Origin: a virus
Lineage: Duplodnaviria > Caudoviricetes
DNA: 52,505 nucleotides
Virus record (IMG/VR): IMGVR_UViG_3300046786_000203
Coordinates: 1 to 52,505 of that record
Direction: 5' to 3' (one strand)
The notes beneath the pieces are model-generated. The model was not told where the DNA came from, made no database searches, and was given only the letters and a program-made list of their open reading frames with translations. Positions 36,045-51,268 of this stretch are shown piece by piece (the first letter of the stretch is position 1; each line of letters starts with the position of its first letter). Made by a program: the position numbers and the translations under genes.

Positions 36045-37472
36045 TTATGAAAGATCGTAACGATCCTTCATAACTGTCTTCAACATGATAGCTTCTGGTG
36101 TGAAGTCTTCCAAGTCACCTGACAGTACAGATGTTGCAACAGCTGGGCTGAAGCCAGAGACAAGAGCGGTACCACTCTTATCGAACTTGACAGGGGTGTT
36201 GCCGTATGCGGCATTCAAGTTCCAGAACACAACTTTAGGAAGAGTGTAACCTGCTTCGCTAAACTTGCGCGCCATCATCTTGATAGCCGATTCGTCCTTG
36301 CCATCAACAGCTCCGTCGAACTGCATGTCAGAGAAGATAACAAGAGTTTCAGGCATTTCTGCTTGTGGAACCTTGTTAGCAACTGCGGTCTTCAACACTA
36401 GGTCAAACGCCGCATTCAAGTTGGTGTTAGCAACTTCGCCAGTGTTCATTTGGTCAATCTTTTGATTGATGTTACCCTTCAAGTTGACCAACTTAGGAGT
36501 ACGACTGAATGTTAGGAAACAGTCAGCGAACTTACCCTTGTTCTTGTCAGCAAAGTACAAGCCAAGAGACAGAGCAACATCTAGACAGGTCAAGCCTGAC
36601 TTAGAGTTGTAACCGCCTGCTGGACAAGTCATTGAACCTGACGAGTCAACCATTGGCAACACGTTAGCGTCACCGATGTAGTTAGGCAATGCATCCCATT
36701 GGGCTTGCAATGCATCCAACTCAGTCTTAGACATAGTTGAACGGCTGTATCGGTTGATAGCACCCTTCAACACATCGTAGGGGAATACTGCGCCTGCGTT
36801 AATCTTAACACCTGCTTCACCCTTAACCAACTTAGTTACGTATTCAGCGTAAGTTGTACCATTACGGCCAAACGCCTTCTTGTAACGTGCATGTGCCACT
36901 GAAGGTACATGGTTGTAGTTGATGTTATCCCAATCCTTAGCACACATTTGTGTTTCCACAACGTTAGTAAGCGCAACTAGGCTCTTACGATATTGCTTAG
37001 GAGTCATTCCGAAGAATTCACGGATTTCACGTGCGACTTCACCCTTACGAGGAGTCCACTTTGCCGCTAGACCATTACGAGCACGTAGTGCATCGCCAAG
37101 CATAGTGTATGCCTTAGCCTTTACAGGCTGAGTCTTGAACACCAGCAAGTCATCGTAACGACCGATTTCTGGGACCTTTGCCATCAAACGCATAGCGTCT
37201 TCTGGCGCATTCTTTTCTAGATAGACAAGAATGTCACGGAACACTTGACGTTCACCGGAACCACCACGGGCATCACGTGCCCACTGTGCAATACGCAGTG
37301 CGAGGTCAATGTTTTCAGCGTATGCCGCAACGAATGCGGGTACGATGTTCTTACCACGGCTTGCGCCGATGTTATAAAACAAGTCAACACATGCGTTAGC
37401 ACTTGACTTGCGAGCCTTCATACCGTTAGTGGTACGAACTTCTTGATTCTTGATTGCTTCTGCGAATTGCAT
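36045..37472 (-). CDS. DUF2828-family protein (TROVE/Ro60-like helical domain plus vWA)
   Basis: ARDARGGSGER, GRYDDL, AAKWTPR, YRK.L and VPSVA motifs; C-terminal vWA with DSSGSM MIDAS, FSDMQFD, VFWNL, SGFSP. Confidence 0.85.
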   Translation of the reverse strand: MQFAEAIKNQEVRTTNGMKARKSSANACVDLFYNIGASRGKNIVPAFVAAYAENIDLALRIAQWARDARGGSGERQVFRDILVYLEKNAPEDAMRLMAKVPEIGRYDDLLVFKTQPVKAKAYTMLGDALRARNGLAAKWTPRKGEVAREIREFFGMTPKQYRKSLVALTNVVETQMCAKDWDNINYNHVPSVAHARYKKAFGRNGTTYAEYVTKLVKGEAGVKINAGAVFPYDVLKGAINRYSRSTMSKTELDALQAQWDALPNYIGDANVLPMVDSSGSMTCPAGGYNSKSGLTCLDVALSLGLYFADKNKGKFADCFLTFSRTPKLVNLKGNINQKIDQMNTGEVANTNLNAAFDLVLKTAVANKVPQAEMPETLVIFSDMQFDGAVDGKDESAIKMMARKFSEAGYTLPKVVFWNLNAAYGNTPVKFDKSGTALVSGFSPAVATSVLSGDLEDFTPEAIMLKTVMKDRYDLS

Positions 37473-37498
37473 TATAGTTCCTTTCTATGTGATTTGCA

Positions 37499-37554
37499 AC
37501 AGGATGCGCTTTTTTACTATTATGAAAAGTATTAAAGTTGCTGAAAGCATCCTA
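37499..37554 (-). ncRNA. CAGCAA-stem RNA 1 (leader of the DUF2828 gene; CAU anticodon-like loop)
   Basis: AGGAUGC-UUU-CAGCAA...GCAUCCU-GU; inner hairpin with UUCAUAA loop. Confidence 0.75.
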
Positions 37555-37561
37555 AAAAATA

Positions 37562-37590
37562 ATTATACTACAGTTTTGATTATTTGTCAA
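37562..37590 (-). promoter_or_regulatory. Consensus sigma70 promoter for RNA 1 and the DUF2828 gene
   Basis: TTGACA-17 nt-TATAAT. Confidence 0.85.
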
Positions 37591-37606
37591 CTGTAGTAAG
37601 TGTAAA

Positions 37607-37757
37607 ACAGGATCGTTGTTGACTGCTTTTTGAATAGGGCCATCACTCCTATTGCGATAGAAGTATTTCAATAGTTACCTTCAACGTCCGTAGACTCCAA
37701 TAACTACCATACATTCCATCAGTTCCAATAAAGTAAATTATTGCTGAGCCGATCCTA
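37607..37757 (-). ncRNA. CAGCAA-stem RNA 2 (about 150 nt)
   Basis: AGGAUCG-GCU-CAGCAA...CGAUCCU-GU. Confidence 0.75.
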
Positions 37758-37769
37758 AAAATTTGTTAA

Positions 37770-37994
37770 ACGGGATGTTCGGAGAACGTAATTTTATTTT
37801 CTGGTTCTACTGTTAACTCCTAGAACCCTATCAACGATTCACGTTGACTAGTTTGTGTTGTGTCTGTACAAACATCATACTCTGTCTTTCCAAAGAGTCA
37901 TCAGTTCCGTCGCCGTCTAGTTTCCTAGATAAAGTCTTTCGAACCGGCTTCTACTGCATTAGTTGAATGTTTTTTAAATGCTGAAATCATCCCT
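37770..37994 (-). ncRNA. CAGCAA-stem RNA 3 (about 225 nt)
   Basis: GGGAUG-AUUU-CAGCAU...CAUCCC-GU; several internal hairpins. Confidence 0.65.
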
Positions 37995-38017
37995 GATTTC
38001 TGATCTTCAATACAAGT

Positions 38018-38046
38018 ATTGTATCTCATTTGACACTTGCTGTCAA
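38018..38046 (-). promoter_or_regulatory. Sigma70 promoter for RNAs 3 and 2
   Basis: TTGACA-17 nt-TACAAT, overlapped by the CAATAC-N2-GTATTG palindrome. Confidence 0.8.
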
Positions 38047-38066
38047 TCTATTTTGGGTAATGTCTT

Positions 38067-38156
38067 TGGCGGAAGCGGTGAGATTCGAACTCACGGTACT
38101 CGTTAAAGTACGACGGTTTTCAAGACCGTTGCGTTAAACCACTCTGCCACGCTTCC
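38067..38156 (-). tRNA. tRNA-Ser(TGA)
   Basis: Cloverleaf, long variable arm, CCA. Confidence 0.95.
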
Positions 38157-38171
38157 GTTATAAATATACTT

Positions 38172-38336
38172 ATGCACACATATGATGCCATTACAAAAAC
38201 CGGTTTAATGATTCACTTGTCCATGAGTGAGGATAATACCGGTTATATTTTAGTACATGATTTAGTTGATTTAAAACTAACCATGAAATTCTTTACTGAG
38301 TTAGAATCTGCGTTATCTTTTATACATTCATTATGA
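38172..38336 (+). CDS. Small hypothetical protein
   Basis: TATAAATA just upstream; ATGA coupling to the next ORF. Confidence 0.5.
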   Translation: MHTYDAITKTGLMIHLSMSEDNTGYILVHDLVDLKLTMKFFTELESALSFIHSL

Positions 38337-38524
38337 GTACAGAAAATAACTATCTAGGGTTGTATAAATTAGCACATAATTTGCCACCTTATCAACCAAC
38401 TAGTAAATGGTGTGCTAATGCACACTATAAAAATGATGAATTCTTTCTGAAAAAAGAATCAATAAAATTTGTCCCTGATAATATTCTCATAACTAAACGA
38501 GAATTTATCAGAGACAATTTTTGA
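38333..38524 (+). CDS. Small hypothetical protein
   Basis: 63 aa ORF filling the space between tRNAs. Confidence 0.5.
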   Translation: MSTENNYLGLYKLAHNLPPYQPTSKWCANAHYKNDEFFLKKESIKFVPDNILITKREFIRDNF

Positions 38525-38525
38525 T

Positions 38526-38599
38526 TGGCATCCCACCAGGGACTCGAACCCCGACCAACGGTTTTGGAGACCGCTATGCTGCCATTACACCAGCGAGAT
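38526..38599 (-). tRNA. tRNA-Trp(CCA)
   Basis: Cloverleaf, loop CUCCAAA. Confidence 0.93.
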
Positions 38600-38603
38600 A
38601 TGT

Positions 38604-38822
38604 TTATCTTTTACCAATACGTTTGAGATAATCTCTACCAACTAACCCTGCTTCAATTTCTTGAAGTGCAGTCACAGTAGGACCTGCTTTAGTAGTTAGT
38701 TTAGGCTTGTGCCCTCTATGCAACTCTCTTACCCTAGCTGCCGCAATAAGAACCAAATCAAATCTGTTTCCAACTTGATTAACAGCTTCTTCACTTGTGT
38801 ATCGTACTCTGCTTTCGGACAT
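38604..38822 (-). CDS. rpoZ: RNA polymerase omega subunit homolog
   Basis: VGNRFDLVLIAAARVREL...TVTALQEIEAG. Confidence 0.88.
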   Translation of the reverse strand: MSESRVRYTSEEAVNQVGNRFDLVLIAAARVRELHRGHKPKLTTKAGPTVTALQEIEAGLVGRDYLKRIGKR

Positions 38823-38849
38823 TTTTAACTTTCGTTTTGTTGATAAACT

Positions 38850-38925
38850 TGGAGCGGGAAAAGAGACTCGAACTCTCGACATTCACCTTGGCAAGGTGAC
38901 GCTCTACCAACTGAGCTATTCCCGC
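38850..38925 (-). tRNA. tRNA-Gly(GCC)
   Basis: Cloverleaf, CCA. Confidence 0.95.
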
Positions 38926-38932
38926 ATTAATT

Positions 38933-39007
38933 TGGTACCTGGACACGGTTTCGAACCGCGGACCCTCTCCGTGTAAAGGAGACGCTCTACCCCTGAGCTA
39001 TCCAGGC
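38933..39007 (-). tRNA. tRNA-Val(TAC)
   Basis: Cloverleaf, loop UUUACAC. Confidence 0.93.
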
Positions 39008-39019
39008 AATATATTCTAT

Positions 39020-39205
39020 TTAACCACCTTGATTAGAGTCTTTAACATTTCCCCAATCAAGTGTGTTATTTTCTTCTTTAGCGTCTGGGAGAGGAGGGGG
39101 AACATAACGTTCTTTCTTTGGCTTCTCTCCGAAGATTCTGTCCATGTTGTTTTGAAATTCAGTTGGACTCACACTGAATGGACGAGGACGAGAACCTTTA
39201 GACAT
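39020..39205 (-). CDS. Small hypothetical protein
   Basis: MSKGSRPRPFSVS...MDRIFG. Confidence 0.65.
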   Translation of the reverse strand: MSKGSRPRPFSVSPTEFQNNMDRIFGEKPKKERYVPPPLPDAKEENNTLDWGNVKDSNQGG

Positions 39206-39372
39206 TACTTAGCTTCCCTCTTACCGTGTCCTTGACGAGATTCATTTTTTGCAATTTCAACAAAACTACGAATGAATGCGCCTCGCACATGTGCGTCACT
39301 AATAAGTGATGCCGCACGTTTTACTGACTTACTAACTTTGACGGCTTTAGCGTCATAACCTCTACATGTCAT
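39205..39372 (-). CDS. Small basic hypothetical protein
   Basis: AAGGA RBS; MTCRGYDAKAVKVSKSVKRAA... Confidence 0.55.
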   Translation of the reverse strand: MTCRGYDAKAVKVSKSVKRAASLISDAHVRGAFIRSFVEIAKNESRQGHGKREAK

Positions 39373-39394
39373 ACTATCTTCCTTTTGTTAAACT

Positions 39395-39471
39395 TGGTCG
39401 GAGTACAAGGATTCGAACCTTGGACCCCCTGGTCCCAAACCAGGTGCGCTACCAGACTGCGCTACACTCCG
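39395..39471 (-). tRNA. tRNA-Pro(TGG)
   Basis: Cloverleaf, CCA. Confidence 0.95.
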
Positions 39472-39477
39472 AATTGT

Positions 39478-39551
39478 TGGATGCGGGTGACAGATTCGAA
39501 CTGCCGATGCTCCGAGCTTATGAGACTGGAGTGGTGACCGCCCTACCCGCG
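39478..39551 (-). tRNA. Atypical initiator-like tRNA-Met(CAT)
   Basis: C1:A72 mismatch, CUCAUAA loop; shortened D arm and bulged anticodon stem. Confidence 0.7.
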
Positions 39552-39566
39552 CAAACTATTTATATC

Positions 39567-39641
39567 TGGTACGTAATAGAAGATTTGAACTTCTGACCTC
39601 TACAATGTCACTGTAGCGTTCTACCCCTGAACTAATCACGC
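39567..39641 (-). tRNA. tRNA-Val(GAC)
   Basis: Cloverleaf, loop GUGACAU. Confidence 0.85.
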
Positions 39642-39643
39642 AT

Positions 39644-39787
39644 TTATCTTGTCAGTTTTCTAACAAGAGTCAAGAAGTAATATCTGAATCCTCGGTACAC
39701 TGGTACTATAGAAAAATCTAAGTAGATACCAATTTCTTTAGGAATGTGACCGTAAGCTTTATTCAATGTTTCATCAGACTTTGGCAC
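39644..39787 (-). CDS. Small hypothetical protein
   Basis: GGGAG RBS, GTG start (MPKSDETLNKAYGHIPKEI). Confidence 0.5.
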   Translation of the reverse strand: MPKSDETLNKAYGHIPKEIGIYLDFSIVPVYRGFRYYFLTLVRKLTR

Positions 39788-39809
39788 GTTTACTCCCTGT
39801 GTTAATGTT

Positions 39810-39885
39810 TGGTGGAGGTGACAGGGATCGAACCCGCGACCTTCTGAATGCAAATCAGACGCTCTCCCAGTTGAGCTACACCCCC
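39810..39885 (-). tRNA. tRNA-Ala(TGC)
   Basis: G3:U70 pair, cloverleaf. Confidence 0.96.
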
Positions 39886-39937
39886 AAATCTACATACTAC
39901 TTATCTCATTATACTCCGTATGTAAGGGAGAGTTCTT

Positions 39938-40022
39938 TGGTGCGACTGTCCGGAATCGAACCGGAACACCTTGCGGCGAGAGATTTTAAGTCTCTTGTGT
40001 CTACCTATTTCACCACAGTCGC
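39938..40022 (-). tRNA. tRNA-Leu(TAA)
   Basis: Cloverleaf with variable arm. Confidence 0.95.
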
Positions 40023-40028
40023 AAATTA

Positions 40029-40182
40029 ACCATAAATTAGTGTACTCGTATGGCAGACTATAAAGAGATACTATCGTCTTTATTAATATAGTATCATAGT
40101 TAGACTATTGTGTGCACCAATAGTCTAACCGAAGTCTGGCAAATTATATACTAAATTAATTTTGAGTACACTAATTTATGGT
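40029..40182 (-). ncRNA. Long-stem structured element overlapping the tRNA-Leu 3' end
   Basis: Perfect 19-bp inverted repeat 40029-40047/40164-40182 plus an internal 12-bp hairpin. Confidence 0.6.
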
Positions 40183-40262
40183 GCGTAAGGAGAGACTCGA
40201 ACTCTCAATCCTCGCGGCGCTGGCTTCTAAGACCAGAGTGTATACCATTCCACCACTTACGC
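40179..40262 (-). tRNA. tRNA-Leu(TAG)
   Basis: Cloverleaf with variable arm. Confidence 0.95.
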
Positions 40263-40280
40263 AAAAACAAACACATAACT

Positions 40281-40350
40281 TTTTAAAGAACAATCAGCGA
40301 TTTCTCACTGTCAATACATGTATTATATATCAAATTTTAATTGAATTCAA
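40281..40350 (-). promoter_or_regulatory. Promoter followed by an rrn-like boxB/boxA leader
   Basis: TTGAAT-17 nt-TATAAT, hairpin CAGTGA-GAAA-TCGCTG, then TGTTCTTTAAAA. Confidence 0.7.
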
Positions 40351-40363
40351 CTATTTTGGGCAT

Positions 40364-41014
40364 TCATATCAGTAATGATAGAGTACTATTTTTAAACATG
40401 TCACTCCAATAACCTACCTTAGGTATCAAGACCCATAGTTTAGATTCACCAAACACTACTAGTGTTCTGTAATTTCTAACTTCATTTAATGCCTCTGATA
40501 CTCCGGGATGAACACTGACAAAATCATCTCCTACTATCAAATTTGTTTCTGCACCGTATTTAATAATGTCATGCTTGACTCCTTCATAGGAATGCGCGCC
40601 ATCAATAAAAACAAAATCATACTCTTTTTCTTTTGTATGACTTTGACTAGTACCTTGATATACAGACAGTTTATTGTACATTATATCACCGATGCAAAAT
40701 CTAAACGCTTCTAACCAATTCTTTTGTTGAGCAATATGTATAGCAACTTTATACATTGATTCACTGCCGGAACAGTTTGAACTAGCGAAGTCGGGAATGT
40801 TTCTAAATGAGCTCCATGTACGTATATCCTCAAATGGATCTATTACTTCCAAAGATACTGAAGAATCTTTTCCGTTGTATAACGCTGTAGTAGACCTACC
40901 TAAAAAACAACCTATTTCTAACATAGAACCATTTTTAGGGACATGTTTAGCTAATATGGTTAGTATACGTAAATCATTTTGCGTCATCCAACCTGGGATA
41001 TCGTTACTACTCAT
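40364..41014 (-). CDS. Class I SAM methyltransferase (Methyltransf_24-like)
   Basis: LEIGCFLGRST, VIDPF, FIDGAHSYEGV and GDDF motifs. Confidence 0.85.
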   Translation of the reverse strand: MSSNDIPGWMTQNDLRILTILAKHVPKNGSMLEIGCFLGRSTTALYNGKDSSVSLEVIDPFEDIRTWSSFRNIPDFASSNCSGSESMYKVAIHIAQQKNWLEAFRFCIGDIMYNKLSVYQGTSQSHTKEKEYDFVFIDGAHSYEGVKHDIIKYGAETNLIVGDDFVSVHPGVSEALNEVRNYRTLVVFGESKLWVLIPKVGYWSDMFKNSTLSLLI

Positions 41015-41028
41015 TTATAAATTAATCT

Positions 41029-41102
41029 TGGAGCGGGGTAAGAGAATCGAACTCTCCGCATCAGCTTGGAAGGCTGAGGTATTACCACTATACGAACCCC
41101 GC
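41029..41102 (-). tRNA. tRNA-Gly(TCC)
   Basis: Cloverleaf, CCA. Confidence 0.95.
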
Positions 41103-41148
41103 ATATTATTACTACTTATCACTATGCAATCGCAAGTGATTTAAATCT

Positions 41149-41225: not shown

Positions 41226-41243
41226 ATGTATAAATACTGTTCT

Positions 41244-45939: not shown

Positions 45940-45942
45940 ACT

Positions 45943-46019: not shown

Positions 46020-46028
46020 ATGAATTTG

Positions 46029-46283: not shown

Positions 46284-46328
46284 TAAACATTGAGAAAGAG
46301 CTTGCATTGCAAGATTCCTATTTGCTCT

Positions 46329-46415
46329 TGGTGGAGACGACTGGAGTCGAACCAGTAGTGCCTTTCGGGCGGCGGATTTACAGTCCACTGGGGTTACCAA
46401 TTTTCCTACATCTCC
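46329..46415 (-). tRNA. tRNA-Tyr(GTA)
   Basis: Cloverleaf with variable arm. Confidence 0.93.
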
Positions 46416-46426
46416 AAAATAGTGAT

Positions 46427-46618
46427 AAGCTACTGGGTTCCACGCCAGCCCTTAATTGAGCAGTTACTCTGTCCATCTCCATTTATTCAAAGTCTGTGTG
46501 CAGTTGAGCTTCTGCCTATCAGAGTCTGCTGGGGTAGTTTCCATCCCTGCGCTAACGGTCTTCTGCCACCGGATCTCTATCGTTAATCATACGCTACTTT
46601 GAAGAAAGTAGTAACTGG
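46427..46618 (-). ncRNA. Unassigned structured RNA, family B copy 2 (about 190 nt)
   Basis: CCAGUUAC-hairpin-GCGUA...ACGAUA...UAAAUGGA..UGGACAGAGUAAC. Confidence 0.65.
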
Positions 46619-46622
46619 ATTC

Positions 46623-46697
46623 TGGAAGAGCCACGGGGAATCGAACCCCGCTTCTCAGGATGAAAACCTGATGTCCTAACCGATAGACGATGGCTCC
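46623..46697 (-). tRNA. tRNA-Glu(TTC)
   Basis: Cloverleaf, loop UUUUCAU. Confidence 0.92.
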
Positions 46698-46699
46698 AT

Positions 46700-46765
46700 C
46701 TATACATAAACACAATACTCATCGGCATACGCCATTTGACTGTTCGGCATTGTGTTTGTGTATAG
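46700..46765 (-). ncRNA. Long-stem hairpin element in the operon leader
   Basis: 17-nt arms CTATACATAAACACAAT / ATTGTGTTTGTGTATAG. Confidence 0.45.
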
Positions 46766-46800
46766 AGCCTTGAACTTAACAAGGATATACAAACTTTAAA

Positions 46801-46881
46801 TTTTAAAGAACATTGTGATTAGCAAGATTGCTTCATCACTTTCAATACATGTAGTATAACTCCTTTCGGATTATTTGTCAA
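46801..46881 (-). promoter_or_regulatory. Promoter followed by an rrn-like boxB/boxA leader
   Basis: TTGACA-17 nt-TATACT, hairpin GTGAT...ATCAC, then TGTTCTTTAAAA. Confidence 0.7.
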
Positions 46882-46928
46882 CAACTTTTTTAAAGTTTTT
46901 GCAAATATTTTTATACTACTTTTGTTTT

Positions 46929-47003
46929 TGGTCCGGCGTAAGGGAATCGAACCCCTATAATCACTTTAGAAGAATGATGTCCTATCCGTTGAACGAACGC
47001 CAG
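46929..47003 (-). tRNA. tRNA-Arg(TCT)
   Basis: Cloverleaf, loop CUUCUAA. Confidence 0.92.
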
Positions 47004-47076
47004 ATGAATTTCTTAGTTGTCTCTATTATAGAGGATTGTTGAATTATTGTCAAGCCTTTGCTCAACAATTTTTGAT

Positions 47077-47152
47077 TGGCTCCTCAACCTGGGCTCGAAC
47101 CAGGGACCAACGGATTAACAGTCCGGCACTCTACCAACTGAGCTATTGAGGA
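47077..47152 (-). tRNA. tRNA-Asn(GTT)
   Basis: Cloverleaf. Confidence 0.95.
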
Positions 47153-47160
47153 ATAAAATT

Positions 47161-47237
47161 TGGTGCCGCTTGTCGGATTCGAACTGACGACCTATCGCTT
47201 ACAAGGCGAGTGCTCTGGCCAACTGAGCTAAAGCGGC
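47161..47237 (-). tRNA. tRNA-Thr(TGT)
   Basis: Cloverleaf. Confidence 0.95.
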
Positions 47238-47308
47238 GTATAAAATTATTTATATGAAGTATATCACTGCGAAACTTTTTTGTCAAGCCTCGCAGTGATA
47301 ATTTCTTC

Positions 47309-47869
47309 CTATGAAAGCAAGATTCTAGAATGCTTTGGAACACCTGCTAGCAAGTATTCCATTTGATCTGCAAGAATAGTTCTATGCTGTAGAATCATGT
47401 TTTCGTAATGGTTAGGTGCATAAGGTGCATACAATAGTTCCATACGTGCTTCTTTCAAAGACTTATGGCCCTTCTTGCTGTTACATTCTTTACATGCAGT
47501 AACCACGTTCATCCAAGTGTTTTCACCACCACTGTATCTAGGTACAATGTGGTCACGACTTAGATTGTTGTAGTTAGGGTGATGTTCACCGCAGTATGCA
47601 CACACGTATCGGTCACGACCAAACAATGTTCGGTTAGTTAATGCTACAGTGGCGTGCTTGTGTGGGTTAAAGCTATGACCCTTAATCGCAATGATTGAGG
47701 GAGTTTCTAGGTAGCTTTCGGTTCCGTCGTTTTGAATACCACCACGATACTTAGCCACAACTTCACCCATTGACCATGCTACTGAATCAGTTGCGTGGTA
47801 GGCGATTGCGTCATCGTATGAAATCCACTGCCGGGGAACGCCCGAAATGTCTAGTGCTAGAACAGCCAT
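47309..47869 (-). CDS. HNH endonuclease
   Basis: RDRYVCAYCG, DHIVP..GG..TWMNVVTACKECNSKK. Confidence 0.92.
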   Translation of the reverse strand: MAVLALDISGVPRQWISYDDAIAYHATDSVAWSMGEVVAKYRGGIQNDGTESYLETPSIIAIKGHSFNPHKHATVALTNRTLFGRDRYVCAYCGEHHPNYNNLSRDHIVPRYSGGENTWMNVVTACKECNSKKGHKSLKEARMELLYAPYAPNHYENMILQHRTILADQMEYLLAGVPKHSRILLS

Positions 47870-47912
47870 GCTATACTCCTTTTTTACTGTCTACATTTAT
47901 TTAATGCCTTGT

Positions 47913-47987
47913 TGGAGGGTCATGTAGGAATTGAACCTACGTCATGAGTTTCGAAGACTCGTATGCTATCCATTGCACCAATGACCC
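47913..47987 (-). tRNA. tRNA-Arg(TCG)
   Basis: Cloverleaf, loop CUUCGAA. Confidence 0.88.
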
Positions 47988-48029
47988 ATACTATGATTAT
48001 ATGACAAATACCATTATTTGTCAACTATT

Positions 48030-48108
48030 TGGTACCCCCTCTCGGAGTCGAACCGAGAGAACTCTTCCTTTTGAGAGAAGCGACTTTGCCAGATTTGTCC
48101 AAGGGGGC
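48030..48108 (-). tRNA. tRNA-Leu(CAA), short variable region
   Basis: Loop CUCAAAA; no long variable arm. Confidence 0.85.
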
Positions 48109-48113
48109 ATATC

Positions 48114-48287
48114 TCATTTAGGTTCAGGAATTTTTCTTAGTGATTCTTTTTTCATAAGACAATCACGTTGAGTCCCAAACTTAAATACTCGCAAGTATTC
48201 AATGCCATCAATAAGTTGAATGGCTTTAGTGTCCTTGCAATAAAATTTCTCCTTATTGCGGAGATTTTCAAAGTAAATTGTTTTCAT
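48114..48287 (-). CDS. Small hypothetical protein (57 aa)
   Basis: AGGAG RBS; MKTIYFENLRNKEKFYC...IDGIEYLRV. Confidence 0.6.
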   Translation of the reverse strand: MKTIYFENLRNKEKFYCKDTKAIQLIDGIEYLRVFKFGTQRDCLMKKESLRKIPEPK

Positions 48288-48301
48288 TATTATCTCCTAC
48301 A

Positions 48302-48378
48302 TGGTACCCCAGATGGGACTCGAACCCACAAATACAACGACCTCAACGTTGCGTGTATACCAATTCCACCACCGGGGC
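48302..48378 (-). tRNA. tRNA-Leu(GAG), short variable region
   Basis: Loop UUGAGGU; no long variable arm. Confidence 0.85.
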
Positions 48379-48386
48379 ATTATAAA

Positions 48387-48499
48387 ACAGGATACATTCT
48401 TGACGAATGCTCTACCAATGAGCTAATCTGGCATGAAGCCAAATACTGGAGTCGAACCAGTAACCTATCGTTTGTGATAGTTTTGCTGTATGTATCCTA
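48387..48499 (-). ncRNA. CAGCAA-stem RNA 6: circularly permuted tRNA-like (YrlA-like)
   Basis: AGGAUAC-AUA-CAGCAA; CUAUC/GAUAG arm; T arm ACUGG-UUCGACU-CCAGU; loop-closed acceptor AUUUGGC/GCCAGAU; D arm UAGCUCAUUGGUAGAGC; GUAUCCU-GU. Confidence 0.85.
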
Positions 48500-48503
48500 A
48501 AAT

Positions 48504-48560
48504 TGGCGGGACATTTTTGATTGCAGTTAAGATACTTGCCAGCATCTATTTTTTTGTCCC
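48504..48560 (-). ncRNA. Mini RNA: acceptor-like stem ending in GCCA, no D or T arm
   Basis: GGGACA...UGUCCC-G-CCA between two family members. Confidence 0.35.
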
Positions 48561-48565
48561 ATAAC

Positions 48566-48688
48566 TGGTGTTGCCGCTGGGATTCGAACCCAGATTTCTT
48601 CCTTGACATGGATTAAGAAGAATGCTGAACGGACTCTAAAAACAGAGTCACCCTTTTATAAGCGTCCTAACCATTAGACGACAGCAAC
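48566..48688 (-). tRNA. tRNA (Asp-GUC-like) with a 48-nt insertion carrying the CAGCA module
   Basis: Acceptor GUUGCUG/CGGCAAC-ACCA, D and T arms intact; insertion contains GACUCU-G-UUUUU-AGAGUC-CGUU-CAGCAU. Confidence 0.7.
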
Positions 48689-48689
48689 A

Positions 48690-49055
48690 TTAAATTCCTA
48701 TATTCTTTCTTCCTCGTTTTCTAGCAAATGAAATACTGCCCTTCATTGCTGTAGCACAAAGAAACTTGTCACCTTTTTTCAAAGTGAATTCGTTTAGTCT
48801 AAATCCTTTGATGACTCTATCACCATTCCACCATTGACGTTGAGTTTCAATGTAACCTAGTTCTTCTAACTGATTACGCAACTTTGTAAACTCGTCATGG
48901 TCTTTGTGGGAAAGACTATAACTCTTATCGTATCCTTTTAAGATTTTGACAATATCTTCATGAGTAGGATTATTGCGATCTTTGATAAAGTCATGTTCTT
49001 CTCTGACTGCTACATCGCAAATAAACTGCTCGTCAATTGTAAATTGTTTCAGCAT
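48690..49055 (-). CDS. Hypothetical protein
   Basis: AAGGAG RBS before MLKQFTIDE. Confidence 0.7.
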   Translation of the reverse strand: MLKQFTIDEQFICDVAVREEHDFIKDRNNPTHEDIVKILKGYDKSYSLSHKDHDEFTKLRNQLEELGYIETQRQWWNGDRVIKGFRLNEFTLKKGDKFLCATAMKGSISFARKRGRKNIGI

Positions 49056-49069
49056 TGTTACTCCTTGAT

Positions 49070-49145
49070 TGGTGGCGACGGTCGGACTCGAACCAACCAC
49101 ACACGGATTTTCAATCCGTTGCTCTACCTGATGAGCTACGTCGCC
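49070..49145 (-). tRNA. tRNA-Phe(GAA)
   Basis: Cloverleaf. Confidence 0.93.
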
Positions 49146-49162
49146 ACTTAAAACCTATTAGG

Positions 49163-49235
49163 GGTGTTCTATGGGGAACGATCCCATACTACCAAGTTCA
49201 CAGCATGGTGTGCAGACCACTACACTAAGAACACC
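49163..49235 (-). tRNA. tRNA-His(GTG), no encoded CCA, atypical T loop
   Basis: G-1:C73, loop CUGUGAA, T loop AUCGUUC; flanks extend the acceptor stem. Confidence 0.8.
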
Positions 49236-49276
49236 CCTAATAAGTCTTTTGATAAATAAAGTTTTAAGGAAACAAT

Positions 49277-49606
49277 ATGGACGAACTAATCGCCGATATA
49301 AAAAATATCTTGCATCTGGCGCCGGCTAGAAGTTCTATTATAATGTTTAAAGCATTAATTGAAAAGCAATCAGGGTCAGTTAAAGTAACTATAGAATCTA
49401 CATTAGAATACTATGAGACACGAACTAACGATGACTGGTCTACTCCTATACTAACCAACCAACGACACATGGAAAAAATCAGAGATACTGGTCTTGCTAT
49501 TGGTTCATTAGAAGCCTTTTTGCATGATAGAAATATCACGTATGATATTTCATATCAAGAAGGTGAAGCTGAAGAAATTATTACAGAGGTAACAATATAT
49601 GCTTAA
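49277..49606 (+). CDS. Hypothetical protein
   Basis: ATAAATA upstream and AAGGA RBS. Confidence 0.6.
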   Translation: MDELIADIKNILHLAPARSSIIMFKALIEKQSGSVKVTIESTLEYYETRTNDDWSTPILTNQRHMEKIRDTGLAIGSLEAFLHDRNITYDISYQEGEAEEIITEVTIYA

Positions 49607-50192
49607 TACACCTGAGGTTATAAAATACAATAAATTTAGACATACAGTACGTTCATTTAATGTAAATGAAACAGTTAGTGATGAATTACTAGAGTATGTA
49701 AATGCCACTATTAATGAATATATTACAACACACAATCTAGATGTTAATGTAGTAGTGCTTACTGACCGTAGTGCAATTCAACAACTATATGCTAATGCAT
49801 TGCATCAGGATGAACCAAAAGAATTTGCATGGAAAACAAATCCACAAATACTCGCGCCGCTTGTATTGTCATTGATACCAAAGAGGAATGGCAATAAAAT
49901 GGAAATGCTTCATATCGGAAGACTGTATGCTAACATAGCACTACACGCTATTGATCTAGGTTATTCGTCTGGATTCTGCACGTGCTTTAACTTACGTGCT
50001 ATTGAATCATACGAAAAAATTGCACACATTTCCAATAGAGATCCTGATACTGATGAAAGAATTCGTCCTACATTTTTGGCTATAGGACATATGTTAGATG
50101 CTACTAAAGCTCATAACTGGTCTTACATAGATCATGGTCATTATATACAAAGTCATGTTAAACCACATGACAACTACATTACCATTGCATGA
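49599..50192 (+). CDS. Nitroreductase-like protein
   Basis: RHTVRSF, AP.VL, A..LGYSSGFC and LAIGH motifs. Confidence 0.7.
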   Translation: MLNTPEVIKYNKFRHTVRSFNVNETVSDELLEYVNATINEYITTHNLDVNVVVLTDRSAIQQLYANALHQDEPKEFAWKTNPQILAPLVLSLIPKRNGNKMEMLHIGRLYANIALHAIDLGYSSGFCTCFNLRAIESYEKIAHISNRDPDTDERIRPTFLAIGHMLDATKAHNWSYIDHGHYIQSHVKPHDNYITIA

Positions 50193-50722
50193 TATATTGC
50201 AAATCATTAAACTTAACAGTATCACCTTTAATAAATGAAAGTGATATTGTTAAGCAAACTGAAAGGCATATAGAGATAAATCTAGATAGAATCAATCCAA
50301 TCCTATATGCATATTTAAAATTACTCGGAGTACGAGTAAGCTACGCAGAATGCTTTCGTTTAAATCCATATCAAGAAAATAACATACACACTGATACAGT
50401 GAGAGGAGATTATGTTAAAATCAATTGGATTTACGGTGGCAAAGACAGCACTATGAGTTGGTATACACCAAACACAATCACTACAAAAAATCTAATGCAC
50501 ACTGCAACCGGAACTACGTATGAAAATTATACAGTAGATGAAGTTACACTAGCACATCGACAGTCATTGAGAAGCCCTAGCTTAGTACAAGTAGGTGTTC
50601 CGCATGATGTTCAAAACTATAGTGAAGTGCGTCATGCACTTAGCCTTGTCATAGCTAAAGGCGACAATCGACTTACGATGACAGAAGCTATTGACATATT
50701 CAAAGAATACATCTTAGAATAA
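50189..50722 (+). CDS. Cupin/2OG-Fe(II) oxygenase-like protein
   Basis: IHTD...KINWIYGG...VQVGVPHDVQN; paralog of 41244..41795. Confidence 0.65.
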   Translation: MIYCKSLNLTVSPLINESDIVKQTERHIEINLDRINPILYAYLKLLGVRVSYAECFRLNPYQENNIHTDTVRGDYVKINWIYGGKDSTMSWYTPNTITTKNLMHTATGTTYENYTVDEVTLAHRQSLRSPSLVQVGVPHDVQNYSEVRHALSLVIAKGDNRLTMTEAIDIFKEYILE

Positions 50723-50830
50723 ACAGGATGATGTGTCTAAAGCCGGGAGTCGAACCCACGACACGCCCCCAAATGGGCTGGCCTGCAAAAGTTTTGGCTG
50801 CAGAAATTTTATGTTGCTGTAGTCATCCTA
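50723..50830 (-). ncRNA. CAGCAA-stem RNA 7 (anticodon-like, variable-like and T arms)
   Basis: AGGAUGA-CUA-CAGCAA...CUGCAG/UUGCAG hairpin...GGG-UUCGACU-CCC...UCAUCCU-GU. Confidence 0.78.
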
Positions 50831-50834
50831 TAAC

Positions 50835-50909
50835 TGGTGGATGTAAGTAGATTCGAACTACTGACCTGCTCCGTATGAAGGAGATGCACTACCGCTGTGC
50901 TATACATCC
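50835..50909 (-). tRNA. tRNA-Met(CAT)
   Basis: Cloverleaf, loop UUCAUAC. Confidence 0.9.
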
Positions 50910-50917
50910 ATTAATCT

Positions 50918-50992
50918 TGGTGCTGATGGCGAGATTTGAACTCACGACCTCTTCCTTACCAAGGAAGTACACTACCACTGTGTTACATCAGC
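50918..50992 (-). tRNA. tRNA-Thr(GGT)
   Basis: Cloverleaf. Confidence 0.92.
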
Positions 50993-50995
50993 ATA

Positions 50996-51113
50996 ACAGG
51001 TTCTCTTTTTTCGTGCTACCACTACACTAACGTGATGACCAATTCACGTCCGGGATTCGAACCCGGCCTCTCTTTTTTACAGAAAGATTATTTTAATTGC
51101 TGAAAAGAACCTA
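50996..51113 (-). ncRNA. CAGCAA-stem RNA 8: circularly permuted tRNA with a Tyr GUA loop (YrlA-like)
   Basis: AGGUUCU-UUU-CAGCAA; UCUUU-CUGUAAA-AAAGA; CCGGG-UUCGAAU-CCCGG; ACGUGA/UCACGU loop-closed acceptor; D arm UAGUGUAGUGGUAGCAC; AGAACCU-GU. Confidence 0.88.
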
Positions 51114-51124
51114 AAGGTCAAACT

Positions 51125-51200
51125 TGGCACCCCCTGATGGACTCGAACCACCGCATGTCGGAATCAAAATCCGATGCCTTACCAACTTGGCGAAGAGGGT
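51125..51200 (-). tRNA. tRNA-Gln(TTG)
   Basis: Cloverleaf. Confidence 0.93.
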
Positions 51201-51208
51201 ATAATATA

Positions 51209-51268
51209 ACAGGATGCTGTTTGCTTTTTTCCAAATAAAAAGTTTTTTAATTTGCTGGAAGCATCCTA
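51209..51268 (-). ncRNA. CAGCAA-stem RNA 9 (short, one inner hairpin)
   Basis: AGGAUGC-UUC-CAGCAA...CUUUUU-AUUUGGA-AAAAAG...GCAUCCU-GU. Confidence 0.75.

What the first reader, a model, noticed from the sequence alone, without database searches (positions are those of the whole stretch)
36045..51268. Candidate new RNP system: Ro60-like DUF2828 protein plus about 10 Y-RNA-like RNAs sharing a CAGCAA-stem module
Seen: nine minus-strand intergenic elements (37499, 37607, 37770, 41881, 45726, 48387, 50723, 50996, 51209) and one insertion (48566) share a roughly 7-bp closing stem, then 3 nt, then CAGCA(A/U), usually with GU after the 3' strand. The stem covaries: AGGAUGC/GCAUCCU, AGGAUCG/CGAUCCU, AGGAUAC/GUAUCCU, AGGAUGA/UCAUCCU, AGGUUCU/AGAACCU, UUGUAAG/CUUACAA. 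CAGCA and its spacing stay fixed while the enclosed cargo varies from about 30 to 200 nt. Three copies sit directly upstream of the DUF2828 gene. Established: Ro60/Rsr (TROVE plus vWA) proteins bind the terminal stem of Y RNAs, usually encoded next to the gene, and bacterial YrlA RNAs carry a tRNA-like domain. Inference: the stem plus CAGCAA is the binding site for the DUF2828 protein and differs from the canonical Ro-binding sequence, giving one protein many interchangeable RNA cargos. I do not know of a described RNA partner for DUF2828, but cannot check the literature here.
Basis: partly seen in the sequence, partly recalled or inferred. Interest (0 to 1): 0.95.

Follow-up and report, generated by a model that had tools for sequence, protein, structure and literature searches.

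The report
Phage Ro60-like protein with CAGCAA RNAs
A phage gene for a ring-shaped, Ro60-like RNA-binding protein travels with a previously undefined family of small RNAs that share one short handle and carry tRNA look-alike parts, probably forming a particle used in the phage-host struggle over RNA.

Summary
All ten sites exist on the minus strand. Eight follow the pattern of a 7-bp stem, 3 nt, CAGCAA and a G-U after the 3' strand. One uses CAGCAU. One is a circularly permuted copy inside a tRNA-like gene.

The module is an RNA family linked to DUF2828/DUF7788 genes. In 103 loci from distant phages and bacterial contigs it occurs 211 times on the gene strand and 32 times opposite; permuted-hexamer controls give about 23. 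84 of the 103 loci have a copy within 1.5 kb, and 41 of those 84 hold no tRNA gene. All 7 stem pairs covary.

In whole-genome scans the model hit 5 of 5 phages that carry the protein. It hit 0 of 5 that lack it by the tests used (CcrColossus only partly tested).

The protein model (pLDDT 90) has the Ro60 fold (Z 21.9 to Xenopus Ro60), but the Pfam TROVE model does not match it. Cargos are tRNA parts.

No Rfam family covers the module. Two papers only guessed that nearby RNAs might be Y RNAs.

Verdict: a new Y-RNA-like family for a divergent Ro60 branch. Binding is inferred, not shown. The module also strongly resembles Dictyostelium Class I RNAs; that link is untested.

The parts
36045..37472 (-). 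DUF2828/DUF7788 protein, 475 aa, Ro60 fold (helical repeat ring plus vWA domain with a DxSxS MIDAS motif)
   Evidence: Pfam PF25043 5.4e-41 and PF11443 4e-26, no TROVE hit. AF2 pLDDT 90.2, pTM 0.90. Foldseek top 13 hits are all Ro60/TROVE. VIA Z 21.9, 412 residues aligned to 1yvp. D276, S278 and S280 are invariant in 79 sequences.
37500..37554 (-). Short module RNA (55 nt): UAGGAUGC-UUU-CAGCAA ... GCAUCCUG. Its own perfect TTGACA-17-TATAAT promoter lies at 37590-37562.
   Evidence: CM R1 48.4 bits; Rfam Dicty_Class_I 28.0 bits, below its threshold
37608..37757 (-). Module RNA with a 150-nt body (stem AGGAUCG/CGAUCCU)
   Evidence: covered by RNA-library contigs identical to the window
37770..37996 (-). 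Variant module RNA, about 225 nt: GGGAUG-(A)UUU-CAGCAU ... CAUCCC-GU. A promoter-like site lies at 38046-38018.
   Evidence: relatives carry GGGATGT stems
41882..41944 (-). Short module RNA (63 nt). Its inner hairpin, UUUGA-CUUUUAA-UCAAA, looks like an anticodon arm reading UUU.
   Evidence: CM R1 56.7 bits
45726..45939 (-). Divergent candidate (214 nt): UUUGUAAG-UGU-CAGCAA ... CUUACAAA. It lacks the G after the 3' strand, so membership is uncertain.
   Evidence: TTGTAAG stems recur 11 times in relatives; summed contig depth is high in two RNA libraries
48388..48499 (-). YrlA-like module RNA (112 nt): terminal module, then hairpin, T arm, acceptor-like hairpin and D arm
   Evidence: Rfam YrlA full-length match, 29.6 bits against a gathering score of 69; fold
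48569..48688 (-). tRNA-like gene with an encoded CCA. Its anticodon arm is replaced by the circularly permuted module (hairpin plus CGUU-CAGCAU at 48622-48649).
   Evidence: the same design was seen in 8 of 8 long tRNA-like genes examined in DUF2828 loci
50724..50830 (-). Module RNA (107 nt) with a T-arm-like hairpin (stem AGGAUGA/UCAUCCU)
50997..51113 (-). YrlA-like module RNA (117 nt): anticodon-arm-like hairpin, T arm, acceptor-like hairpin and D arm (stem AGGUUCU/AGAACCU)
51210..51268 (-). Short module RNA (59 nt)
   Evidence: CM R1 59.1 bits; Rfam Dicty_Class_I 31.2 bits against a gathering score of 41.5
38067..52425 (-). Array of 36 tRNA genes. Seven of the module RNAs sit in it, 4-12 nt from neighbouring tRNAs.
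   Evidence: spacings read

Best explanation
The 475-aa DUF2828/DUF7788 protein is a divergent member of the Ro60 fold: a helical-repeat ring plus a vWA/MIDAS domain.

The small RNAs are its Y-RNA counterparts. They share one handle. It is a 7-bp helix that usually starts A-(A/G)-G. The 5' strand is followed by single-stranded (U)UA-CAGCAA, and the 3' strand is followed by G-U. This handle is most likely what the protein recognises.

The handle is attached to interchangeable tRNA-like bodies in three layouts:
(i) RNAs of about 60 nt that hold one small hairpin, often shaped like an anticodon arm;
(ii) YrlA-like permuted tRNA bodies (T arm, acceptor hairpin, D arm) closed by the handle;
(iii) tRNA-like genes with normal ends, in which the handle, closed by a short loop, replaces the anticodon arm.

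Most copies are transcribed with the protein gene or with the tRNA array, and are probably cut out like tRNAs.

The particle would then present tRNA mimics as decoys or as landing sites for tRNA-acting enzymes such as nucleases, repair ligases or exoribonucleases. That would protect or tune phage translation during infection.

Shown here: the RNA family, its covariation, its linkage to the gene, the protein fold, and the tRNA-like cargo. Inferred: binding of the protein to the handle, processing of the RNAs, and the biological role.
For: Fold. The AF2 model has pLDDT 90.2. The Foldseek top 13 hits are all Ro60/TROVE, E 3e-9 to 1.5e-6. VIA gives Z 21.9 over residues 8-455, with vWA-only hits at Z 10.3 or below. 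The MIDAS DxSxS motif is invariant.

Linkage. In 103 loci holding a homologue (named phages, IMG/VR contigs and contigs of bacterial genomes), the module occurs 211 times on the gene strand and 32 times opposite. Twenty permuted hexamers average 23.0 and 19.45. 84 of the 103 loci have a copy within 1.5 kb, and 82 of the 94 loci with more than 200 nt of upstream sequence do.

A test without selection for pairing. 156 of 234 CAGCAA hexamers in the 1.5 kb upstream on the gene strand have the closing 7-mer. The figures are 4 of 60 inside the gene and 32 of 365 on the opposite strand.

Not a tRNA-array feature. 41 of the 84 loci with a module have no tRNA gene in the locus.

Distant examples:
- Felix O1: AGACCNN, 4 copies
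- Listeria LP-083-2: AGGAAUC, AGAGAGC and AGGAAGC
- Mycobacterium phage Clautastrophe: UGGACNN, 3 copies
- Campylobacter F341: 2 copies

Covariation. All 7 pairs change on both sides: 119 cells against 30 in shuffles.

Whole-genome scans with CM R1.
- All 9 hits in four phage genomes that carry the protein lie beside the gene. Six of those 9 were training sequences. CcrColossus gave none.
- In three bacterial genomes of 3.5-9.2 Mb, the hits lie beside the gene or in a 22-tRNA array 43 kb away.
- Among five control phages, only KVP40 was hit, and only KVP40 has PF25043.

Permuted form. 62 on the gene strand against 5 opposite, with controls at 6.3 and 4.25. It was present in 8 of 8 long tRNA-like genes examined.

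Cargo. 54 of 175 elements hold a T-arm-like or anticodon-arm-like hairpin, against a mean of 3.07 (maximum 7) in 200 shuffles. Full-length YrlA matches below threshold scored 29.6, 37.7 and 39.3 bits.

Context. An RtcB-like ligase and an RNA ligase lie beside the Listeria gene. A polynucleotide kinase lies in the mycobacteriophage locus.

Published work (passages read).
- Bas63 gp130 is Ro60-like, sits directly upstream of the tRNAs and counters the ppl defence.
- In Listeria phage CKA15, the most transcribed unannotated regions lie within 2 kb upstream of the Rsr-like gene.
- True TROVE Ro60 proteins of phages bind Y-like RNAs encoded upstream.
Against: No binding data exist for any member of this family.

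In the PhageMaP preprint, gp130 alone rescued T7 from ppl, whether expressed from a plasmid or inserted in T7. At least that activity therefore does not need the phage's own RNAs, unless host RNAs substitute.

Pfam TROVE does not match the protein. Sequence-level similarity to Ro60 is limited to the MIDAS stretch: PDB profile search E 0.03 and hhalign probability 72% over 47 columns.

The one CKA15 transcribed region whose coordinates are printed (26,236-26,727) maps about 0.7-1.2 kb upstream of the three Listeria modules, not onto them.

The RNA evidence for the window itself comes from assembled contigs only. These cannot show discrete ends, strand or level.

CM R1 misses the long-cargo members. 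Counts for those rest on a simple script that demands perfect 7-bp pairing.

19 of the 103 loci have no strict match. Seven of these have under 200 nt of upstream sequence.
Confidence: 0.7

Rival explanations
1. The module is a cis-acting leader of the DUF2828 mRNA, for example a site where the protein, or another factor, controls its own expression. It is not a separate RNA partner.
For: 155 of 179 nearby copies lie upstream of the gene on the same strand, at a median distance of 199 nt. In the window the nearest copy ends 28 nt before the ATG. RNA-library contigs run across the gene start and the modules.
Against: Up to 6 tandem copies occur per locus. In Felix O1 and Clautastrophe the copies lie downstream of the gene. 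Copies lie 4-14 kb away inside tRNA arrays (window) and 43 kb away in G003. Some have their own promoters. The module is embedded in tRNA-like genes. Cargos are tRNA mimics.
Confidence: 0.1
2. The module is a processing or punctuation signal of phage tRNA operons, for example a site for a host RNase or a stabilising end structure. It has no specific tie to the protein.
For: In the window, seven copies sit 4-12 nt from tRNA genes, like members of the array. In G003 three copies lie in a 22-tRNA array. The 7-bp stem with an unpaired 3' G resembles an acceptor stem with a discriminator base.
Against: 41 of the 84 loci with a module near the gene hold no tRNA gene. The tRNA-rich phages T4, T5, Bxz1 and G have no CM hit, while KVP40, the only one of that set with the protein, has one. 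CAGCAA is invariant across hosts from Actinobacteria to Campylobacter, whose RNases differ.
Confidence: 0.1
3. The short members are minimal, armless tRNAs (acceptor stem plus anticodon arm) that act in translation or as primers.
For: They have a 7-bp terminal stem. In about 25 elements an inner hairpin of 5 bp with a 7-nt CU-NNN-AA loop sits at a fixed distance. One permuted member has an encoded CCA.
Against: Most short members have no anticodon-like loop: 21 of 81 short elements matched the hairpin test, which also counts T-arm-like loops. There is no CCA after the stem, which is followed by G-U(U/A). There is no T or D arm to fit the ribosome or the synthetases. The invariant CAGCAA has no tRNA counterpart.
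Confidence: 0.05
4. The repeats act at the DNA level, for example as ends of a small mobile element or as sites for a homing endonuclease or recombinase.
For: Multiple copies occur per genome. HNH endonuclease genes lie in the arrays.
Against: The strand bias follows the gene (211 against 32). Compensatory changes keep pairing in all 7 positions. G-U pairs are tolerated on one strand only. Cargos are RNA-type structures.
Confidence: 0.02

Closest known systems
Ro60/Rsr with Y RNAs, especially bacterial and phage YrlA (Rfam RF02553; Chen et al. 2014, PMC4201824: passages and Table S2 read; phage phiLo Ro60-Yrl1/2, PMC12135203: passages read)
   Same: A ring plus vWA protein. Its RNAs are encoded beside the gene on the same strand, often in several copies. 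The RNAs are closed by a terminal stem. tRNA-like bodies carry the T arm, acceptor hairpin and D arm in permuted order. RNA-repair genes lie nearby.
   Different: The protein belongs to Pfam DUF2828/DUF7788, not to TROVE/vWA_Ro60. The handle is stem-N3-CAGCAA rather than the module seen next to the true TROVE gene of CcrColossus (GGGUGGCGUAG ... GUUCCCCC) or the CGAA bulge described for phiLo. YrlA scores stay far below threshold. The 2014 survey searched only genomes with TROVE-annotated proteins, so it did not cover this family. New layouts exist: 60-nt forms, and a permuted handle inside tRNA-like genes.
Dictyostelium Class I RNAs (Rfam RF01414; Kjellin et al. 2021, PMC7919456, and its preprint: passages and section 10 read)
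   Same: Size of about 60 nt. [quoted passage not shown] It is directly followed by ..UUACAGCAA. In the phage family the three spacer positions are U 41%, U 55% and A 65%, followed by CAGCAA. The loci start with A-A-G. The 3' end is C-UGU, with the C paired to the 5' G. The remainder is variable and A/U-rich. The genes occur in clusters. Rfam aligns three phage elements full length, in register, at 28.0-31.2 bits.
   Different: The scores are below the gathering score of 41.5. The Dictyostelium stem-to-CAGCAA spacing is one nucleotide longer. Those RNAs are eukaryotic and probably made by Pol III, with a DUSE promoter. The known direct binder is the RRM protein Rnp1A. I could not check whether Dictyostelia have a DUF2828 protein.
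Published notes on this protein family: Bas63 gp130 (PhageMaP preprint, PMC11482910) and Listeria phage CKA15_055 (PMC12282133)
   Same: The same gene position next to the tRNA cluster, the same Ro60 or Rsr likeness, and the same suspicion that nearby RNAs are Y RNAs. LP-083-2, studied here, is a close relative of CKA15: 96% identity over the 401 nt upstream of the gene.
   Different: Neither paper, in the passages read, defines an RNA motif, a structure or a distribution. The Bas63 authors suspected mis-annotated tRNA genes. The CKA15 authors discussed three unannotated transcribed regions.

Membership tests
Ro60/TROVE proteins (Pfam PF05731 plus PF25045) | Helical-repeat ring followed by a vWA domain (Ro60 fold) | tested here: met
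   AF2 pLDDT 90.2. Foldseek top 13 hits are all Ro60/TROVE. VIA Z 21.9, rmsd 3.8, 412 residues aligned to 1yvp over residues 8-455.
Ro60/TROVE proteins (Pfam PF05731 plus PF25045) | Match to the Pfam TROVE model | tested here: not met
   Only PF25043 and PF11443 appear at E up to 0.01. CcrColossus gp139 does match TROVE at 1.2e-17. hhalign between the two covers only 47 columns around MIDAS.
Ro60/TROVE proteins (Pfam PF05731 plus PF25045) | MIDAS motif in the vWA domain | tested here: met
   D276, S278, S280, T350 and D382 are invariant in 79 sequences.
Ro60/TROVE proteins (Pfam PF05731 plus PF25045) | Binds Y RNA on the outer ring surface | not testable with these tools
   No protein-RNA modelling or assay was available.
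YrlA (Rfam RF02553) | Reaches the Rfam gathering score (69 bits) | tested here: not met
   29.6 bits at 48386-48498. 37.7 and 39.3 bits in L133 and L142. No hit in the Felix O1 locus.
YrlA (Rfam RF02553) | tRNA-like domain (T arm, acceptor-like hairpin, D arm) closed by a terminal protein-binding stem | tested here: met
   48388-48499 and 50997-51113, and Felix O1 L087 8424-8548. Most members lack this domain.
YrlA (Rfam RF02553) | Encoded within about 4 kb of the Ro60 gene on the same strand | tested here: met
   84 of 103 loci have a module within 1.5 kb on the same strand. In the window, three copies are adjacent and seven lie 4-14 kb away.
YrlA (Rfam RF02553) | Canonical Ro-binding helix sequence | tested here: inconclusive
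   The handle differs from the one beside the TROVE gene of CcrColossus. I did not compare it with a curated Ro-site consensus.
Dictyostelium Class I RNA (Rfam RF01414) | Reaches the Rfam gathering score (41.5 bits) | tested here: not met
   31.2, 28.0 and 28.1 bits. No hit in the Felix O1 locus at E up to 1.
Dictyostelium Class I RNA (Rfam RF01414) | Terminal stem, adjacent ..UUACAGCAA motif, conserved 5' (A)AG and 3' CUGU | tested here: met
   Frequency table of 175 elements, set against the Rfam consensus and against section 10 of PMC7919456. The spacing differs by one nucleotide.
Dictyostelium Class I RNA (Rfam RF01414) | DUSE promoter and dictyostelid origin | tested here: not met
   The sequences are from phages and bacteria. 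Sigma-70-type promoters occur where any promoter is present.

The most novel reading that the evidence does not exclude
DUF2828/DUF7788 proteins and CAGCAA-handle RNAs may form a second, ancient Ro/Y-type particle lineage. It would run from phages and prophages to giant viruses and eukaryotes.

On this reading, the Class I RNAs of dictyostelid amoebae are its eukaryotic members. These RNAs are abundant and developmentally regulated. Their function is unknown, and they have been reported as unique to Dictyostelia.

The preprint of Kjellin et al. names DDB_G0281243 as a protein of unknown function. It was pulled down with Class I RNA DdR-21 and is conserved in all Dictyostelia. It could be the DUF2828-type partner. 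I could not look this protein up.

In phages the same handle lets one protein display a changeable set of tRNA decoys.
Probability: 0.25. Interest if true: 0.92.

Novelty: new variant of a known kind. Interest (0 to 1): 0.8.

Why it matters
- Homologues of the protein are found in 702 of the 50,697 phage records searched. They include workhorses such as Felix O1, P100/A511-type Listeria phages, KVP40 and mycobacteriophages. Annotators label the protein anything from 'hypothetical' to 'Ro-like'.
- Defining its RNA partner family gives a precise motif to annotate and a modular design that can be tested.
- It may account for some of the unannotated, highly transcribed regions reported upstream of this gene in Listeria phage CKA15. 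That was not shown here.
- It offers candidate RNA partners to test in the reported anti-defence activity of Bas63 gp130.
- It extends Ro/Y biology to a protein branch that the TROVE-based surveys did not cover.
- It shows a handle used in both normal and circularly permuted topology on tRNA bodies.
- If the Dictyostelium link holds, it gives a long-standing orphan RNA class a candidate protein partner and an origin.

Tried and rejected
- **CM R1 on the long members.** R1 was built from 42 short elements. In the window it finds only the three short members and misses the long-cargo ones. Long members were therefore counted by script.
- **Rfam.** No family reaches its gathering score on any module in the stretches scanned: window 1-38100 at gathering score and 35000-52505 at E up to 1; Felix O1 and Ci1 loci; Listeria, Mycobacterium and Campylobacter loci; seven further loci. 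The freshwater-1 hit in L122 is a different motif.
- **Close phage relatives.** Megablast of window 36045-40000 matched only tRNA-sized stretches in 17 records.
- **Literature.** The ten searches were: 'DUF2828' (5 papers, none on function); 'YrlA, phage'; 'Class I RNA, Dictyostelium, CAGCAA'; 'Class I RNA, DdR-21, Rnp1A'; 'Ro-like, phage, tRNA, Y RNA'; 'Dictyostelium, Class I RNAs, von Willebrand' (0 papers); 'PF11443, IPR011205, UCP015417, PIRSF015417, DUF7788' (3 papers, none relevant by title and abstract start); 'Ro60, Y RNA, phage, defense system'; 'Class I RNA, Dictyostelium, CIBP'; 'DDB_G0281243' (1 paper). None describes this RNA motif.
- **Papers not reached.** Avesson et al. 2011 is not held. 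Supplements of the preprints were not read.
- **Dictyostelium homologue.** A search of longer proteins gave one Fusarium protein. The protein atlas gave Ascomycota and giant-virus clusters. Neither settles the question.
- **P0239 as query in viral contigs.** No match.
- **CKA15 transcription.** The one published region with coordinates does not coincide with the three Listeria modules.
- **RNA contigs for the window.** They show cover but cannot show ends. Parts without cover are not interpreted.
- **Earlier findings.** Look-ups by place and with five words returned nothing.

Full report
**What the window is.** The window is a whole IMG/VR virus record of 52,505 bases, estimated to be 16% complete. 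No phage in the GenBank phage collection is a close DNA relative over 36045-40000. Its right third carries 36 tRNA genes, all on the minus strand between 38067 and 52425. A 475-aa ORF at 36045-37472 (minus strand) matches Pfam DUF7788 (5.4e-41) and DUF2828 (4e-26), and nothing else at E up to 0.01.

**The observation.** A script looked for a 7-mer, 2-4 nt, CAGCA, and the reverse complement of the 7-mer within 420 nt.
- 37500-37554
- 37608-37757
- 41882-41944
- 48388-48499
- 50724-50830
- 50997-51113
- 51210-51268
- 45726-45939, with the odd stem UUGUAAG

NNAUCCUG-UU.

The site at 37770 is a variant with CAGCAU and one mismatch in the stem (37770-37996). The site at 48566 is a tRNA-like gene, 48569-48688. 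Its anticodon arm is replaced by GACUCU-GUUUUU-AGAGUC followed by CGUU-CAGCAU.

CAGCAA alone is not clearly enriched in the window (48 against 34 expected). The composite AGGATNNNNNCAGCAA occurs 6 times on the minus strand, and never on the plus strand or for the reversed control. Minimum-energy folds close the terminal stem in every element and mostly leave CAGCAA unpaired.

**Is it a family, and is it tied to the protein?**

The protein has 215 confirmed relatives in IMG/VR, on contigs of up to 364 kb. In the 80 loci kept (1.05 Mb), the module occurs 350 times on the gene strand and 85 times opposite, with new stems such as AGGTTAG, AGGCTAG, TGGATGA and GGGATGT.

A tblastn search found homologues below 60% identity in 702 phage records. 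These include Escherichia, Mycobacterium, Salmonella, Vibrio, Listeria, Staphylococcus, Campylobacter and Enterococcus phages.

The module lies beside the gene in each named phage examined for it:
- Felix O1 (38% identity): four copies with the stem AGACCNN and the tail GG, just after the gene and inside the tRNA array. One of them carries a T arm, an acceptor-like hairpin and a D arm.
- Listeria phage LP-083-2: three copies directly upstream of the gene.
- Mycobacterium phage Clautastrophe: three copies directly downstream.
- Campylobacter phage F341: two copies directly upstream.

I then pooled 104 loci (L087-L190). They comprised six named phages, 18 IMG/VR loci found with a 41%-identical homologue, and 80 contigs of bacterial genomes or MAGs found with the alignment. 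103 of them held a homologue. The exception is the CcrColossus locus. The strict module gave these counts:
- 211 on the gene strand and 32 opposite; twenty permuted hexamers averaged 23.0 and 19.45.
- 84 of the 103 loci have a copy within 1.5 kb.
- 82 of the 94 loci with more than 200 nt of upstream sequence have one, with 1-6 copies per locus, mostly upstream at a median distance of 199 nt.

A test that does not select for pairing gives the same answer. 156 of 234 CAGCAA hexamers in the 1.5 kb upstream on the gene strand have the closing 7-mer. The figures are 4 of 60 inside the gene and 32 of 365 on the opposite strand.

The tie is to the gene, not to tRNA arrays: 41 of the 84 positive loci hold no tRNA gene.

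**Covariation and a model.** I aligned 42 short elements with distinct stems. All 7 pairs change on both sides (119 cells against 30 in shuffles), and sliding the partner strand destroys pairing. Pairing of 100% was built in by how the elements were picked, so the informative figures are the pair types and the counts.

The covariance model R1 was then run on whole genomes:
- Felix O1, LP-083-2, Clautastrophe and F341 gave 3, 3, 2 and 1 hits. All lie beside the gene. Six of the nine were training sequences. CcrColossus (280 kb) gave none.
- In the bacterial genomes G002, G003 and G004, the few hits lie beside the gene. None of these was a training sequence. In G003, three more lie in a 22-tRNA array 43 kb away.
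- I picked five tRNA-rich phages as controls. T4, T5, Bxz1 and phage G gave none. KVP40 gave one hit at 42.8 bits. A Pfam search then showed that KVP40 is the only one of the five with DUF7788.

Together this is 5 of 5 against 0 of 5. One caveat applies: CcrColossus was not scanned genome-wide for DUF7788.

**Anatomy of the handle.** The figures come from 175 non-redundant elements.

| Position | Commonest base(s) |
|---|---|
| Base before the stem | A 66% |
| Stem position 1 | A 81% |
| Stem position 2 | A 53% or G 43% |
| Stem position 3 | G 73% |
| Spacer (3 nt) | U 41%, U 55%, A 65% |
| Motif | CAGCAA (required by the search) |
| First base after the 3' strand | G 93% |
| Next base | U 67% |

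**Cargo.** 54 of the 175 elements contain a hairpin of 5 bp with a 7-nt loop of the tRNA type. The loop is either a T loop (UUCGAnU) or an anticodon-like CU-NNN-AA. Shuffles average 3.07, with a maximum of 7. The anticodon-like triplet UUU occurs seven times. One of these is the window's 41882-41944 element.

Two window elements (48388-48499 and 50997-51113) have the YrlA layout. Rfam YrlA aligns full length to the first of them, and to elements in L133 and L142, at 29.6-39.3 bits, below its gathering score of 69.

**The permuted form.** All 8 of the 8 over-long tRNA-like genes examined in these loci carry a 6-7-bp hairpin with a short loop, then 2-4 nt, then CAGCA(A/U), in place of the anticodon arm. 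This is the handle read in circular permutation. In the window copy, the loop even keeps the G-U that normally follows the 3' strand. Across the 103 loci this closed form occurs 62 times on the gene strand and 5 times opposite, with controls at 6.3 and 4.25.

One handle is thus joined to tRNA bodies in either topology. That is what would be expected of a protein-docking site.

**The protein.** An AlphaFold2 model built from 79 diverse sequences has pLDDT 90.2 and pTM 0.90. The top 13 Foldseek hits in the PDB are all Ro60/TROVE proteins: Thermus phage phiLo, Xenopus, human and Deinococcus, at E 3e-9 to 1.5e-6. VIA-align gives Z 21.9, rmsd 3.8 and 412 aligned residues to Xenopus Ro60 over residues 8-455. 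Ten Ro60 entries score Z 13-21.9. vWA-only proteins follow at Z 10.3 or below. The MIDAS DxSxS motif is invariant.

At sequence level the relation is barely visible. A profile search against the PDB gives E 0.03 in the vWA region. hhalign against the TROVE protein of CcrColossus gives 72% probability over 47 columns. This is therefore a separate family with the Ro60 fold.

The true TROVE gene of CcrColossus is preceded by its own, different tandem RNAs: GGGUGGCGUAG ... tRNA-like body ... GUUCCCCC. The two protein branches thus appear to have distinct handles and the same overall design.

**Expression.** For the window there are only metatranscriptome contigs. Contigs with no difference from the window cover 37002-37877 in one run. 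Contigs with 0-1 differences cover 37495-37988 and 36993-37540 in two other studies. Together they span the gene start and the upstream modules. Summed contig depth there is 40-190, against 1-10 over 41.5-45.3 kb. Contigs cannot show ends, strand or level, and other organisms' contigs add to depth, so this is weak support.

Published work, of which I read passages:
- In Listeria phage CKA15, the three most transcribed regions of the genome are unannotated. They lie within 2 kb upstream of the Rsr-like gene and have strong sigma-A-type promoters. The authors raise Y RNAs as one explanation. The one region with printed coordinates maps upstream of the three modules, not onto them.
- In the window, a perfect TTGACA-17-TATAAT site ends 7 nt before the 37554 element. 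The other array-embedded copies sit 4-12 nt from tRNAs. This suggests release by the tRNA-processing enzymes, which is an inference.

**Function.** Neighbouring genes point to RNA repair and modification:
- an RtcB-like ligase, an RNA ligase and phosphoesterases in the Listeria phage;
- a polynucleotide kinase in the mycobacteriophage;
- a CCA-adding enzyme in Ci1;
- radical-SAM, methyltransferase and 2OG-Fe(II) oxygenase genes in the window's array, and a DSP-type phosphatase beside the gene.

Iyer et al. 2021 describe TROVE proteins of jumbo phages as an RNA-repair platform with a tRNA-like partner (passages). The PhageMaP preprint reports that Bas63 gp130, a Felixounavirus protein, is Ro60-like, lies directly upstream of the tRNAs and counters the ppl defence. 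It also reports that gp130 alone rescues T7. That result supports an anti-defence role. It also argues that this particular activity does not need the phage's own RNAs.

My best reading is a Ro/Y-type particle that displays tRNA mimics, with odds of about 0.7 for the RNP itself. Confidence in the decoy or enzyme-recruitment role is much lower.

**Prior knowledge and novelty.**
- Chen et al. 2014 searched only genomes with TROVE-annotated proteins. Their phage table lists phage G, CcrColossus and 20 Bxz1-type mycobacteriophages.
- GenBank annotators already call some members of this family 'Ro-like RNA binding protein'.
- Two recent papers guessed at Y RNAs nearby.
- None of my ten literature searches, listed under Tried and rejected, found the CAGCAA handle, its distribution or its permuted form. 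No Rfam 15 family reaches threshold on it in the loci scanned.

I file it as a new variant of a known kind.

**The Dictyostelium resemblance.** The only non-tRNA Rfam family that repeatedly aligns to the short elements is Dicty_Class_I_RNA: 31.2 and 28.0 bits in the window and 28.1 bits in L122. The matches are full length and in register, but below the gathering score of 41.5.

According to Kjellin et al.:
- Class I RNAs are about 60 nt long.
- A covarying 6-bp stem joins their ends.
- The stem is directly followed by an 11-nt motif. The Rfam consensus reads GaUcuC-CUUACAGCAA.
- The loci begin A-A-G and end C-UGU, with the C paired to the 5' G.
- Their function is unknown, and they were reported as unique to Dictyostelia.

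The phage family shares each of these features except one extra nucleotide in the spacer.

DUF2828/DUF7788 proteins do exist in eukaryotes and giant viruses. The preprint version names a protein of unknown function, DDB_G0281243, among four proteins pulled down with Class I RNA DdR-21. I could not find out what it is. This is a lead, not a result.

Noticed in passing
window 51278-51366 (-): A tRNA-like sequence with a long variable arm that ARAGORN did not call. Rfam tRNA-Sec scores 38.6 bits, below its threshold of 47. The anticodon loop reads CUUGAAA. It sits 10 nt upstream of the 51268 module RNA.
   Followed up: partly
window 45726-45939 (-): A 214-nt structured element between tRNA-Asp and tRNA-Ser. 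It has a CAGCAA start but an atypical stem and no 3' G. Summed contig depth is very high in two RNA libraries (about 2000 near 45917). No Rfam match at E up to 1.
   Followed up: partly
window 34689-35156 (-), 40364-41014 (-), 42145-42762 (-), 43277-44548 (-): A DSP-type phosphatase lies just downstream of the Ro-like gene. Methyltransferase, 2OG-Fe(II) oxygenase and radical-SAM genes are interspersed in the tRNA array. These may be RNA-modifying enzymes.
   Followed up: no
L089 (Listeria phage LP-083-2) 9963-10296 and 10381-10990: Two strong TTGACA/TATA(G/C)T promoters, each followed by 300-550 nt without a gene. The second corresponds to the most transcribed region reported for phage CKA15 (26,236-26,727). 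It is not a CAGCAA module, and its nature is unknown.
   Followed up: partly
L092 (Caulobacter phage CcrColossus) about 4500-5650 (-): Seven tandem RNAs that each start with GGUGGCG(U/C)AG and mostly carry tRNA-like bodies lie upstream of the TROVE gene. The 2014 survey lists three.
   Followed up: no
L122 1007-1068 (+): An Rfam freshwater-1 RNA (RF02979, 82.7 bits, above threshold) lies about 290 nt upstream of a DUF2828 gene, among module RNAs and tRNA-like genes. This may give genomic context for that orphan motif.
   Followed up: no
L191 (G003, Oscillospiraceae genome) 3083-7014: A 22-tRNA array with three module RNAs lies 43 kb from the DUF2828 gene on a 368-kb scaffold. It is probably one large prophage.
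   Followed up: partly
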